The position numbers and the translations under genes are program-made. A stretch of 64,000 nucleotides of DNA, taken from contig OX597835.1 in the NCBI GenBank assembly GCA_951406725.2, positions 18,414,001 to 18,478,000 on the forward strand, written 5' to 3'. The notes beneath the pieces are model-generated. The model ran no database searches, was not told where the DNA came from, and was given only the letters and a program-made list of their open reading frames with translations. The number at the start of each line of letters is the position of its first letter. Positions within the stretch are counted from its first letter, which is position 1. Source of the DNA: Octopus vulgaris. Taxonomy: Eukaryota. Below are positions 59,644 to 60,172 of the stretch, in pieces.

Positions 59644-60172
59644 ATTAATTGTTATCGCCATATTAATATGGCATTCTTATAGATATAAGAATAATCGCTG
59701 CCATGGTCAGCTCCATGAGGCCACCGCCATCAAGATAGCTATTGATACACGATCTGTATCCATTATAACCTTCGAACATGGGAGGTCAGCCGCTTCACAC
59801 TGCCAGTCCGACAGCTACAGACGCGTTTCGGGGTATTGCCCCTTGTCAATGTAGCGCAGTCAGACCCGCAGGTGTCGCCACTGACGTCTCTGTTCGAAGG
59901 CTTATATTTACCTAGTTTCAGTGGAATACATCCACTTGTTTTCAATAATAGAAATATTAAAATTACTAAGTCTCTATAAGGTTATAATGGATACAGATCG
60001 TGTATCAATAGCTATCTTGATGGCGGTGGCCTCATGGAGCTGACCATGGCAGCGATTATTCTTATATCTATAAGAATGCCATATTAATATGGCGATAACA
60101 ATTAATTTCCAGTAAACGCTGCCATAATCTCTTTTATAGAGACTTAGTAATTTTAATATTTCTATTATTGAA
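59644..60172. repeat. Interleaved perfect inverted repeats A (129 bp) and B (39 bp)
   Basis: 59644-59772 = revcomp 59978-60106; 59941-59979 = revcomp 60134-60172. Confidence 0.95.
59814..59855 (-). ncRNA. Minimal type I hammerhead ribozyme, apparently intact (U3-A8 core variant)
   Basis: Minus strand gctaca-TTGACAA-gggg caata cccc-GAAA-cgcg-TC-tgtagc: perfect 6 bp stem I, 4 bp stem II, palindromic stem III acgcgt, GUC triplet. Confidence 0.9.

What the first reader, a model, noticed from the sequence alone, without database searches (positions are those of the whole stretch)
59769..59900. Apparently intact U3-A8 hammerhead at the tip of a ~130 nt rod-like hairpin
Seen: HHR 59814-59855 (minus) has perfect stems and a GUC site (cut predicted between 59820 and 59819). 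Stem I extends outwards through gtccgac/gtcagac, cactgc/gcaggtg, gaggtcag/ctgacgtctc to ccttcgaaca/tgttcgaagg. It is a GC-rich island in AT-rich DNA and is not next to (TA)n. Inference: a young PLE terminus or retrozyme-like RNA of a different family from the 41-47 kb element; rod-like folds recall viroid-like/retrozyme circular RNAs.
Basis: partly seen in the sequence, partly recalled or inferred. Interest (0 to 1): 0.75.

Follow-up and report, generated by a model that had tools for sequence, protein, structure and literature searches.

The report
Hammerhead-bearing 363-nt tandem retroelement copy
The hairpin is real and carries a complete hammerhead ribozyme motif, but it is one young copy of a short non-coding jumping repeat present in well over a thousand copies in this animal genome, a known kind of element (a "retrozyme") that is predicted to cut its own RNA and was likely copied in by the enzymes of a Penelope-like retrotransposon.

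Summary
Minus strand 59855-59814 is a complete type I hammerhead: U3-A8 core, 6-bp helix I, 4-bp helix II, GUC site, cut predicted between 59820 and 59819. It caps a 132-nt rod (59900-59769; -72.8 kcal/mol, z -7.9).

The rod is not a lone island. It is part of a 525-bp insertion (59644-60168) flanked by an 11-bp target duplication (TGAATATCATT).

The genome (2.8 Gb) has 1,736 exact copies of this hammerhead core, against 2 for a reversed-pattern control. Units form tandem arrays of period 362-363 with up to 8 or more units. Arrays are 5'-truncated and mostly inserted into (TA)n.

Subfamilies 82-90% identical keep the ribozyme. They vary at the free core position N7 and show compensatory changes in helices I and II and in the rod.

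This fits animal non-LTR retrozymes with Penelope-type insertion anatomy. Self-cleavage, circular RNA and the mobilising element remain untested. Rfam does not detect the motif. It is a new member of a known kind, of modest interest.

The parts
59633..59643 (.). Left copy of the 11-bp target-site duplication, TGAATATCATT
   Evidence: Read directly. The same 11 bases recur at 60169-60179. The boundary is ambiguous by 1 nt.
59644..59979 (-). Near-full unit (unit positions m28-m363) of the 363-nt repeat. It comprises an AT-rich leader 59979-59901, the rod 59900-59769 and a 3' region 59768-59644. It ends at the fixed terminus ...CAATTAAT (m363).
   Evidence: blastn to a tandem unit from L015: 99.4% over 336 nt. 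Genome copies are 98-100% identical.
59769..59900 (-). 132-nt rod-like hairpin: extended helix I with the hammerhead at its tip
   Evidence: MFE -72.8 kcal/mol, z -7.94. Across 38 distinct family rods, 46 pairs are 96.5% paired. Seven pairs show changes on both sides, against 2.6 +/- 1.2 in shuffles.
59814..59855 (-). Type I hammerhead motif with a U3-A8 core. Helix I is 59855-59850 with 59819-59814. The core is 59849-59843. Helix II is 59842-59839 with 59833-59830. GAAA is 59829-59826. The palindromic CGCG is 59825-59822. U16.1 is 59821 and C17 is 59820.
   Evidence: Sequence read. It is the only such motif in the window. The same core pattern has 1,736 exact genomic matches against 2 for the control.
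59819..59820 (-). Predicted self-cleavage site (after C17 = 59820)
   Evidence: Inferred from standard hammerhead numbering applied to the sequence. Cleavage itself was not tested.
59978..60106 (+). Second copy, 5'-truncated and inverted (m235-m363). It starts at the 3' foot of the rod and forms the perfect 129-nt inverted repeat with 59644-59772.
   Evidence: the repeat finder I1, 100% complementary. blastn 100%. Of 62 family arms, 12 start at m226-235.
60107..60168 (+). Continuation of the plus-strand copy into the next unit: the 27-nt spacer (m1-27, 60107-60133) and the 35-nt 'tail' (m28-62, 60134-60168). It ends at the family's usual terminus ...TTTCTATTAT.
   Evidence: blastn 98.5%. The same terminus is seen in 30 of 61 arm ends and.
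60169..60179 (.). Right copy of the target-site duplication, TGAATATCATT
   Evidence: Read directly.

Best explanation
The hairpin is the ribozyme arm of one young copy of a 363-nt non-coding, tandemly repeating retroelement of the animal non-LTR 'retrozyme' kind, inserted here as a 525-bp head-to-head double copy with an 11-bp target duplication; its U3-A8 hammerhead is predicted to cut multimeric transcripts into unit-length RNAs, likely as a dimer, and the element was likely copied into the genome by the reverse transcriptase/endonuclease of a Penelope-like element.

Shown by calls or by the sequence itself:
- The motif, the rod and the inverted repeat.
- The target duplication.
- The tandem 362-363-nt family and its copy number.
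- The preference for (TA)n.
- The two fixed outer ends of insertions and the variable 5' truncations.
- The conservation and covariation of the ribozyme among subfamilies.

Inferred:
- Arrays are transcribed into multimers.
- Two hammerheads pair through the palindrome ACGCGU to build a 6-bp helix III. This is the double-hammerhead mode of newt and axolotl repeats. Each then cuts after C17.
- The monomers are ligated into circles.
- A PLE enzyme nicks (TA)n and primes cDNA on the RNA at two AU-rich sites (m62 and m363), one per DNA strand. This would give head-to-head arms.
- The stable rod often stalls the reverse transcriptase. This would explain why the short arm in the window begins exactly at the rod's foot and creates the 129-nt inverted repeat.
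For: Motif and fold. The core and helices are complete. The rod has z -7.94. The chance expectation is 0.02 per window.

Family.
- A search of the window's own genome with the 463-nt stretch gave 2,086 first-look candidates. Forty were scored and gave 202 matches, many 98-100% identical, on more than 20 contigs.
- The pattern TTGANAA...GAAACGCGTC has 857+879 = 1,736 exact matches, against 0+2 for the reversed control.
- Tandem spacing is 362-363 nt. Arrays reach 5 or more units (L046, L047) and 8 or more (L048).
- The unit is non-coding: only ATG ORFs of 45 and 48 aa overlap it. It is 42.7% G+C.

Insertion anatomy in 39 insertions (62 arms).
- Outer ends fall at m53-69 (30 arms) or m355-363 (30 arms); one arm ends at m137.
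- 23 of the 39 insertions are head-to-head, and all 23 have one arm of each end type.
- 5' ends vary, with 12 of 62 at m226-235, the foot of the rod. A uniform spread would give 1.7.
- Ends abut (TA)n in 26 of 33 tail ends and 18 of 21 m363 ends.
- Target duplications of 11, 11 and 12 bp are readable at the three non-microsatellite sites: the window, L016 and L009.
- This is the structure described for PLE insertions: 5' truncation, partial tandems, an adjacent inverted 5'-truncated copy, a tail at one end only, and microsatellite bias (PMC8557442, passages read).

Ribozyme under constraint.
- Subfamilies 82-90% identical keep the core. They differ at N7 (A in most copies, C in the window's subfamily).
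- At pair 10.1-11.1 of helix II the counts are G-C 31, G-U 3, A-U 2. In helix I the counts are A-U 30, G-U 7, G-C 1. The rod shows G-C to A-U in 7 rows and A-U to G-C in 5 rows.
- Across five lineages, the 30-column window over the 3' half of the ribozyme (helix II 3' strand to helix I 3' strand) is invariant at 26 of 30 columns. The whole unit is invariant at 71% of columns, and the least conserved windows at 9 of 30.

Further support.
- The circular monomer is predicted to be highly self-paired: -137.4 kcal/mol, z -8.8, and the rod is retained.
- A very abundant, near-identical PLE family with intact 776-847-aa ORFs exists in the genome, with one copy in the window. In the three plus-strand loci printed downstream of the endonuclease domain, that stretch runs into TA/TG-rich sequence shared among them.
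- The literature describes this class: 150-450-bp tandem repeats with a type I hammerhead, low GC, target duplications longer than 4 bp, and PLEs as the likely mobilisers (PMC7229834, sections read; bioRxiv 10.64898/2026.07.22.740005, Results read).
- The canonical metazoan hammerhead architecture is described as helix I 6 bp, helix II 4 bp, and helix III 1-2 bp with a palindromic 2-4-nt loop, working as a dimer. A U3-A8 core variant is also reported there (PMC4209133, passages read).
Against: No Rfam hammerhead model matches, even at E <= 10.

Helix III cannot form within one molecule, so activity depends on an untested dimer. The self-duplex of ACGCGU is only -7.5 kcal/mol.

U3-A8 is a rare core. 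For the minimal PLE hammerheads, the paper that reports the variant found low activity in vitro (PMC4209133).

None of the 62 arm 5' ends lies at m185-192, around the predicted cut at m187/188. Three lie at m194-196, and eight cluster at m19-32. Ribozyme-cut linear monomers are therefore not the usual template. A linear transcript of about 400 nt that the ribozyme never processes is not excluded.

No autonomous element sharing sequence with the unit was found. None of 30 loci of the abundant PLE family shows similarity, and neither does the PLE in the window.

The copies examined are a biased sample. Thirty loci are top-scoring matches to the window query, and nine were picked from the first 100 pattern hits on one contig.

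The covariation rests on about four to six independent events among related subfamilies.
Confidence: 0.8

Rival explanations
1. The insertion is simply the truncated tail end (pseudo-LTR) of an autonomous Penelope-like element in its usual tandem-plus-inverted form. It is not a separate non-autonomous ribozyme element.
For: The insertion anatomy is exactly that of PLEs: 5' truncation, an inverted 5'-truncated partner, a tail at one end and a (TA)n preference (PMC8557442 passages). PLE pseudo-LTRs carry hammerheads, including a U3-A8 variant (PMC4209133). An earlier finding of this scan in another genome (e1-7908855) resolved a look-alike in this way.
Against: The tandem period is 362-363 nt, with arrays of 5 to 8 or more units. 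A PLE tandem would repeat at the length of the whole element. None of the 62 arms runs into coding sequence; the only large ORF near an array is an inserted LINE with endonuclease and RT domains. None of 30 loci of the abundant PLE family, nor the window's own PLE, shares sequence with the unit. Other PLE families of this genome were not surveyed.
Confidence: 0.1
2. The unit is a mobile or satellite repeat in which the hammerhead-like sequence is a catalytically dead relic. The rod matters only as RNA or DNA structure, for example for recognition by the reverse transcriptase or as a promoter, and no self-cleaved or circular RNA is made.
For: Rfam does not detect the motif. Helix III is not stable within one molecule. 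The U3-A8 core is uncommon. None of the 62 arm 5' ends lies at the predicted cut. The most conserved part of the unit is the tail region m38-77, with 29 of 30 columns invariant; the ribozyme window has 26 of 30.
Against: Every invariant core position is intact in 1,736 copies. Among subfamilies the core changes only at N7, the one position free to vary. Helices I and II change by wobble or compensatory steps. The helix lengths (6 bp, 4 bp, and 1-2 bp with a palindromic loop) are those described for active dimeric metazoan hammerheads (PMC4209133; PMC7229834).
Confidence: 0.08
3. The locus is a DNA transposon of the MITE type, or an assembly artefact. The 129-bp perfect inverted repeat and the roughly 10-bp target duplication would be the marks of a cut-and-paste element or of a palindromic misassembly.
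For: A perfect 129-bp inverted repeat flanked by a direct repeat looks superficially like a MITE.
Against: The right arm of the inverted repeat is not terminal: 62 more bases of the element follow it before the target duplication. In the other head-to-head insertions the short arms span 27 to 212 nt and the inner junctions differ. The two outer ends are never the reverse complement of each other, being m62 against m363 in 23 of 23. Many copies are plain tandem arrays. Independent loci with their own target duplications (L016, L009) argue against misassembly.
Confidence: 0.02

Closest known systems
Animal non-LTR retrozymes (Cervera & de la Pena 2020, PMC7229834; Li, Clavereau & Pollet 2026, bioRxiv 10.64898/2026.07.22.740005)
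   Same: Both are non-coding tandem units of a few hundred bp. Here the unit is 363 nt; mussel units are about 350-390 bp. Both have one type I hammerhead per unit, low G+C (42.7% here) and thousands of copies. Both show target duplications longer than 4 bp and a strongly self-paired predicted circular monomer. Both co-exist with PLEs.
   Different: The core here is U3-A8 instead of C3-G8, and Rfam misses it. Linear or circular RNA was not shown here. This family shows a sharp (TA)n preference and a strict two-terminus head-to-head architecture, which the passages I read do not describe for retrozymes. I found no printed match to this sequence (a weak test).
Hammerheads of Penelope-like elements, including the U3-A8 variant of Cercyon in Schistosoma mansoni (Cervera & de la Pena 2014, PMC4209133)
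   Same: Both have the U3-A8 covariation in the core, a tiny palindromic helix III that implies action as a dimer, and an association with PLE-type insertions.
   Different: The PLE 'min-HHRs' are described with helix II of 7-8 bp, helix I of 4-5 bp and a bulged base. Here helix I is 6 bp and helix II is 4 bp, the 'canonical metazoan' proportions. The motif also sits in a 363-nt tandem unit, not in the pseudo-LTR of a coding PLE.
Newt and axolotl satellite hammerheads (HHR_Amex1; double-hammerhead mode of Forster et al. 1988, as cited in PMC7229834 and PMC4209133)
   Same: Both have a helix III reduced to one base pair capped by a palindromic tetraloop. Here that is A-U around CGCG, or equivalently 2 bp around GC. 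In those systems such ribozymes cut poorly as monomers and well as dimers.
   Different: The host lineage and the sequence differ. The core is C3-G8 in the amphibian motifs. Here helix I continues into a long rod through an internal loop instead of ending in a loop 1. Dimer activity is untested here.
PLE insertion architecture (Craig et al. 2021, PMC8557442)
   Same: Both show 5' truncation, partial tandems, an inverted 5'-truncated copy next to the 5' end, an extension ('tail') at only one end, and microsatellite targets.
   Different: The element here is non-coding. Whether the tail is 35 nt (m28-62) or 62 nt depends on where the unit is taken to start. No PLE sharing sequence with the unit was identified.

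Membership tests
Hammerhead ribozyme, type I | Conserved catalytic core (positions 3-9, 12-14, the 15.1-16.1 pair, H17) | tested here: met
   U4 G5 A6 N7 A9, G12 A13 A14, A15.1-U16.1 and C17 are all present. Positions 3 and 8 are U and A instead of C and G, a covariation reported for PLE hammerheads (PMC4209133).
Hammerhead ribozyme, type I | Helices I and II flank the core, and helix I is the open helix | tested here: met
   Helix I is 6 bp and extends into the rod. Helix II is 4 bp with a 5-nt loop. Both are kept through wobble and compensatory changes across subfamilies.
Hammerhead ribozyme, type I | Helix III | tested here: inconclusive
   There are only 2 possible pairs around 2 nt, which cannot close as a hairpin. 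The palindrome ACGCGU could form a 6-bp intermolecular helix (-7.5 kcal/mol), as in known dimeric hammerheads. Dimer formation was not tested.
Hammerhead ribozyme, type I | Match to a curated covariance model (Rfam Hammerhead families) | tested here: not met
   No hammerhead hit at gathering score in the window, nor at E <= 10 in 59500-60200.
Hammerhead ribozyme, type I | Site-specific self-cleavage | not testable with these tools
   Needs in vitro transcription or mapping of RNA ends.
Animal non-LTR retrozyme | Short (150-450 bp) non-coding unit in tandem arrays, one type I hammerhead per unit | tested here: met
   The period is 362-363 nt and arrays reach 8 or more units. No ATG ORF longer than 48 aa overlaps the insertion.
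Animal non-LTR retrozyme | Dispersed retrotransposed copies with target duplications longer than 4 bp, low G+C, no LTR | tested here: met
   Copies lie on more than 20 contigs. Target duplications are 11, 11 and 12 bp. G+C is 42.7%. PBS and PPT motifs were not searched for.
Animal non-LTR retrozyme | Unit-length linear and circular RNAs in vivo | tested here: inconclusive
   Only assembled contigs of runs whose RNA nature is a guess could be laid. They cannot show ends, circles or expression.
Animal non-LTR retrozyme | Highly self-paired predicted circular monomer | tested here: met
   The circular MFE is -137.4 kcal/mol with z -8.8, 65% of bases are paired, and the fold is branched with the rod retained.
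Terminal region (pseudo-LTR) of an autonomous Penelope-like element | Continuity with, or sequence identity to, the end of an RT/GIY-YIG-coding element | tested here: not met
   None of the 62 arms continues into coding sequence. None of 30 loci of the abundant PLE family, nor the window's PLE, is similar to the unit. Other PLE families were not surveyed.
MITE / TIR DNA transposon | Terminal inverted repeats at both ends of every copy | tested here: not met
   The right arm of the inverted repeat is internal. The outer ends are m62 against m363 in 23 of 23 head-to-head copies.

The most novel reading that the evidence does not exclude
This is a currently active retrozyme family that runs on a U3-A8 hammerhead with canonical metazoan proportions. 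Its ribozyme cuts only when two rods kiss through the ACGCGU palindrome. Its circular or multimeric RNA is reverse-transcribed from two fixed AU-rich priming sites, one on each strand of a nicked (TA)n target. This produces the head-to-head arms in one event, with the ribozyme rod acting as a roadblock to the reverse transcriptase. If so, the family would be a compact natural model for the unsolved integration mechanism of Penelope-like elements.
Probability: 0.3. Interest if true: 0.55.

Novelty: new member of a known kind. Interest (0 to 1): 0.35.

Why it matters
The locus adds a well-defined, very young family to the animal retrozymes: 1,736 intact ribozyme cores in copies that are 98-100% identical.

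It shows that a U3-A8 core, so far noted in minimal PLE hammerheads, can sit in a hammerhead of canonical proportions. That hammerhead is kept under constraint across subfamilies, yet the curated covariance models miss it. Genome surveys that rely on Rfam would overlook this family.

The insertion statistics are concrete, testable clues to how Penelope-type enzymes integrate cDNA, a step the PLE literature still calls undefined:
- The outer ends are fixed at two places.
- Every head-to-head insertion has one arm of each kind.
- 5' truncations pile up at the foot of the rod.

For annotation, the perfect 129-bp inverted repeat and the GC-rich island in this window are explained as one ordinary retroelement insertion.

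Tried and rejected
**Rfam.** Only U6 passes the gathering score in the window. There is no hammerhead at E <= 10 around the locus.

**RNA evidence.**
- The look-up of sequencing runs: no RNA holder is listed.
- Contigs of four runs guessed to be RNA (X1, X5, X6, X7; four studies) cover the unit. In X5 and X7 one contig each joins unit end to unit start ('goes back 363'). This fits a tandem transcript, a circle or DNA equally well.
- In X1 the unique flanks have no cover, while the likely DNA runs X15-X17 cover them. The X1/X15 depth ratio of the unit (about 0.001) is far below that of the neighbouring repeat at 60590-60760 (about 0.035). DNA carry-over cannot be excluded, so there is no verdict on expression.
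- No contig of X15-X17 joined across the insertion, so no empty site was seen. The flank contigs reach only 27-30 letters into the element, below the 31 needed to count as bridging.

**Sister family with a canonical core.** The pattern CTGANGA...GAAACGCGTC gave 10 hits against 4 for the control, so there is none.

**Autonomous partner.**
- The window's PLE endonuclease domain retrieved a huge family: 21,677 first-look candidates, of which 150 were scored.
- blastn of the unit against 30 of its loci found nothing better than E = 4.6.
- The 1,140-aa ORF beside an array in L048 is a LINE (Exo_endo_phos plus RVT_1), not a PLE.
- The PDB sequence search with the window RT ORF was uninformative.

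**Other checks.**
- The odd pattern hit in L045 has a weak helix I and fold z of -0.49, and was judged a chance match.
- tRNA module: ARAGORN finds none in 59400-60400.
- Pile-up of 5' ends at the cleavage site: none of 62 arms at m185-192.
- Literature search for the ribozyme sequence as a text string: 0 papers.
- Earlier notes of this scan by place and by sequence: nothing.
I did not pursue them.
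Full report
**1. The observation.**
The minus strand 59855..59814 reads GCUACA UUGACAA GGGG CAAUA CCCC GAAA CGCG UC|UGUAGC.
- In hammerhead numbering this is helix I (6 bp), then U3 U4 G5 A6 C7 A8 A9.
- Helix II is 4 bp with loop CAAUA. It is followed by G12 A13 A14, the A15.1...U16.1 pair and C17 (59820).
- Helix III is reduced to A-U and C-G around two bases, which gives the palindrome ACGCGU.
Its MFE is -72.8 kcal/mol against -42.4 +/- 3.8 for 200 dinucleotide shuffles (z -7.94, none as good).
- Three descriptor scans of both strands of the window, of increasing looseness, return this motif and nothing else.
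- A motif with helix I >= 6 bp and helix II >= 4 bp is expected 0.02 times per shuffled window (100 shuffles).
- The rod is 59% G+C. The flanks are 39% and 37%.
- Rfam finds only a U6 gene in the window. It finds no hammerhead around the locus even at E <= 10.

**2. What surrounds it.**

A search of the window's own genome (2.8 Gb, 227 contigs) with 59644-60106 gave 2,086 first-look candidates. Forty of these were scored and gave 202 matches. Many are 98-100% identical, and they lie on more than 20 contigs.

The repeating unit is 363 nt. I number it m1-m363. Positions m1-27 are a spacer that is absent from the window's minus-strand copy. Position m28 corresponds to window 59979 and m363 to 59644, both on the minus strand.

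In these terms the window holds the following parts:
- On the minus strand, m28-363 (59979..59644).
- Head-to-head with it on the plus strand, m235-363 (59978-60106).
- Then, still on the plus strand, m1-62 of the next unit (60107-60168).

The whole 525-bp insertion is flanked by the direct repeat TGAATATCATT at 59633-59643 and 60169-60179. It is therefore one integration event with an 11-bp target duplication. The 129-nt inverted repeat is simply the part (m235-363) that the two arms share.

**3. The family.**
- The pattern TTGANAA-(helix II)-GAAACGCGTC has 857+879 = 1,736 exact matches in the genome. The same pattern read backwards has 0+2.
- Successive hits are 362-363 nt apart. Arrays have 5 or more units (L046, L047) and 8 or more (L048).
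- The unit is non-coding: only ATG ORFs of 45 and 48 aa overlap the insertion. It is 42.7% G+C. ARAGORN finds no tRNA.
- Over the rod, the window copy differs from the majority of 44 sampled copies only at 59779.

**4. Insertion anatomy.**
I examined 39 insertions (62 arms). They came from 30 loci that were top-scoring matches to the window query and 9 loci picked from the first 100 pattern hits on contig C1. Two overlapping loci were dropped.
- Outer (3') ends are bimodal. Thirty lie at m53-69 (...TTTCTATTAT) and thirty at m355-363 (...CAATTAAT). One lies at m137, next to an inserted LINE.
- 23 of the 39 insertions are head-to-head. Leaving out the 11 loci that were found because they match the window's inverted arm, the figure is 12 of 28.
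- All 23 head-to-head insertions have one arm of each end type.
- Inner (5') ends vary. Twelve of 62 lie at m226-235, where 1.7 would be expected if they were uniform. This is the 3' foot of the rod (m107-238). The window's short arm (m235) belongs to this class.
- Eight 5' ends lie at m19-32. None lies at m185-192, around the predicted cut at m187/188. Three lie at m194-196.
- Tail ends abut (TA)n in 26 of 33 listed cases; two loci are listed twice because they overlap. The m363 ends do so in 18 of 21.
- At the non-microsatellite sites, target duplications can be read: 11 bp in the window, 11 bp in L016 (CAATTCCTTTA) and 12 bp in L009 (GAGTATATATAT).

Craig et al. describe this catalogue for Penelope-like elements (PLEs): strong 5' truncation, partial tandems, an inverted 5'-truncated copy at the 5' side, an extension at only one end, and microsatellite targets. 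They call the mechanism undefined (PMC8557442, passages read).

**5. Is the ribozyme under constraint?**
Subfamilies 82-90% identical to the window's unit keep the core.
- Most copies have A at N7, and the window's subfamily has C. This shows in the first 100 rows. In the likely DNA run X15, 79% of the summed depth at 59845 carries the other letter.
- A third subfamily has AGGG...CCCT in helix II.
- I aligned 38 distinct rods (out of 65 extracted). I imposed the hammerhead-compatible structure, which was derived from the window copy, so the slid controls are flattered. With it, 46 pairs are 96.5% paired.
- Seven pairs carry changes on both sides (18 cells). Shuffles give 2.6 +/- 1.2, with 0 of 500 reaching the observed value. 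Slid registers give 0-2.
- Individual pairs:
  - Helix II pair 10.1-11.1: G-C 31, G-U 3, A-U 2.
  - A helix I pair: A-U 30, G-U 7, G-C 1.
  - Rod pairs: G-C to A-U in 7 rows and A-U to G-C in 5 rows.
- These rows are related by descent, so they amount to about four to six events.
- Across five lineages, the 30-column window over the 3' half of the ribozyme is invariant at 26 of 30 columns. Overall 71% of columns are invariant, and the least conserved windows (starting at m283 and m293) have 9 of 30. The most conserved windows (29 of 30) are those starting at m38 and m48, together about m38-77, which hold the tail terminus.
- A sister family with a canonical C3-G8 core and the same helix III does not exist: 10 hits against 4 for the control.

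**6. The predicted RNA.**
A natural unit folded as a circle gives -137.4 kcal/mol (z -8.8 against 100 shuffles). The structure is branched, and the rod is kept as its main arm.

Helix III cannot close within one molecule. The ACGCGU self-duplex is worth -7.5 kcal/mol.

The helix lengths are 6 bp, 4 bp, and 1-2 bp capped by a palindromic 2-4-nt loop. Cervera and de la Pena describe these as the canonical metazoan type I hammerhead, which works as a dimer in tandem transcripts. The same paper reports the U3-A8 covariation, in the minimal hammerheads of a Schistosoma PLE (PMC4209133, passages read).

Axolotl retrozyme hammerheads with a one-pair helix III capped by a palindromic tetraloop cut weakly as monomers and well as dimers (PMC7229834, passages read).

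**7. Comparison with the known class.**
Animal non-LTR retrozymes are described as follows:
- Tandem repeats of 150-450 bp with a type I hammerhead, low G+C and no LTR.
- Target duplications longer than 4 bp.
- Expression as linear and circular RNAs of about 170-400 nt.
- PLEs as the likely mobilisers.

The sources are PMC7229834 (Results and Discussion sections read) and the 2026 preprint 10.64898/2026.07.22.740005 (Results read).

The family here meets every structural criterion I could test. RNA forms and cleavage could not be tested.

The window's 41.1-44.9 kb element is a PLE. It has an RVT_1 domain, and the linker CGRPNCKTC and the GIY-YIG-like motif YVIRCEGCHEDYIGQT can be read. Naming those two motifs rests on my own knowledge.

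Its family is very abundant and very young. There are 21,677 first-look candidates, and many copies are 100% identical over the endonuclease domain with open frames of 776-847 aa. It shares no sequence with the unit. A plausible class of mobiliser is therefore present, but the actual partner is not identified.

**8. Mechanism, with what is shown and what is inferred.**
- Shown: a DNA-encoded, non-coding, tandem 363-nt element that integrates with target duplications of 11-12 bp. It targets mostly (TA)n. Its insertions have two fixed outer ends and variable inner ends. Its ribozyme motif is conserved.
- Inferred: arrays are transcribed, and hammerheads of neighbouring units pair through ACGCGU and cut after C17. 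Monomers may then be circularised by a host ligase, following the retrozyme model of PMC7229834.
- Inferred: a PLE enzyme nicks both strands of the target, and each 3' end primes cDNA synthesis at one of two AU-rich sites of the RNA. The two cDNAs, often stopped at the foot of the rod, are then joined head-to-head.
- Against a simple version of this model: no 5' ends lie at the cut site, so ribozyme-cut linear monomers are not the usual template. The cluster at m19-32 could mark the 5' end of a linear transcript of about 400 nt.
- Unexplained: other AU-rich hexamers of the unit are not used as termini (note 3).

**9. Expression.**
There is no verdict. Only assembled contigs of runs whose RNA nature is a guess were available. 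Details are under Tried and rejected.

**10. Verdict.**
It is not right on 'PLE terminus' or on independence from (TA)n.
- The locus is a new member of a known kind.
- Its particular points are a U3-A8 core in a canonically proportioned hammerhead that Rfam misses, and unusually clean insertion statistics.
- These make it modestly interesting to specialists in ribozymes and Penelope-like elements.

Noticed in passing
window 41138-44840 (+): This is a Penelope-like element. The ORF 42811-44310 has an RVT_1 domain. The next frame, 44235-44840, has a CGRPNCKTC linker and a GIY-YIG-like motif (YVIRCEGCHEDYIGQT). Its family has 21,677 first-look candidates in the genome. Many copies are 100% identical over the endonuclease domain and have open frames of 776-847 aa, so it looks very young or active.
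   Followed up: partly
window 23903-24011 (+): A U6 spliceosomal RNA gene (Rfam RF00026, 85.7 bits, E 1.9e-20). It shows that the window is eukaryotic nuclear DNA.
   Followed up: no
window ~60590-60760: An extremely abundant repeat. Its summed contig depth in the likely DNA runs is about 10^7, against about 40 for the unique flanks. It is also very deep in the run guessed to be RNA. It was not classified.
   Followed up: no
L048:2784-6203 (+): An intact 1,140-aa LINE ORF (Exo_endo_phos, RVT_1, zf-RVT), with a zinc-knuckle ORF upstream, lies between two arrays of the hammerhead unit.
   Followed up: partly
window 59891-59897 and 59772-59778 (minus strand; both feet of the rod): The heptamer GTTCGAA/TTCGAAC at the base of the rod resembles part of a Pol III B box (recalled from memory). 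No tRNA-like gene is found by ARAGORN. Whether the unit has an internal promoter is open.
   Followed up: no
window 58600-58810 and 61340-61700: Long (CA)n/(TA)n/(GTAT)n and (AAT)n microsatellites flank the region. These are the kind of target that this family and the PLE family prefer elsewhere.
   Followed up: no
They may be degenerate, or of a form the descriptors do not cover.
   Followed up: partly
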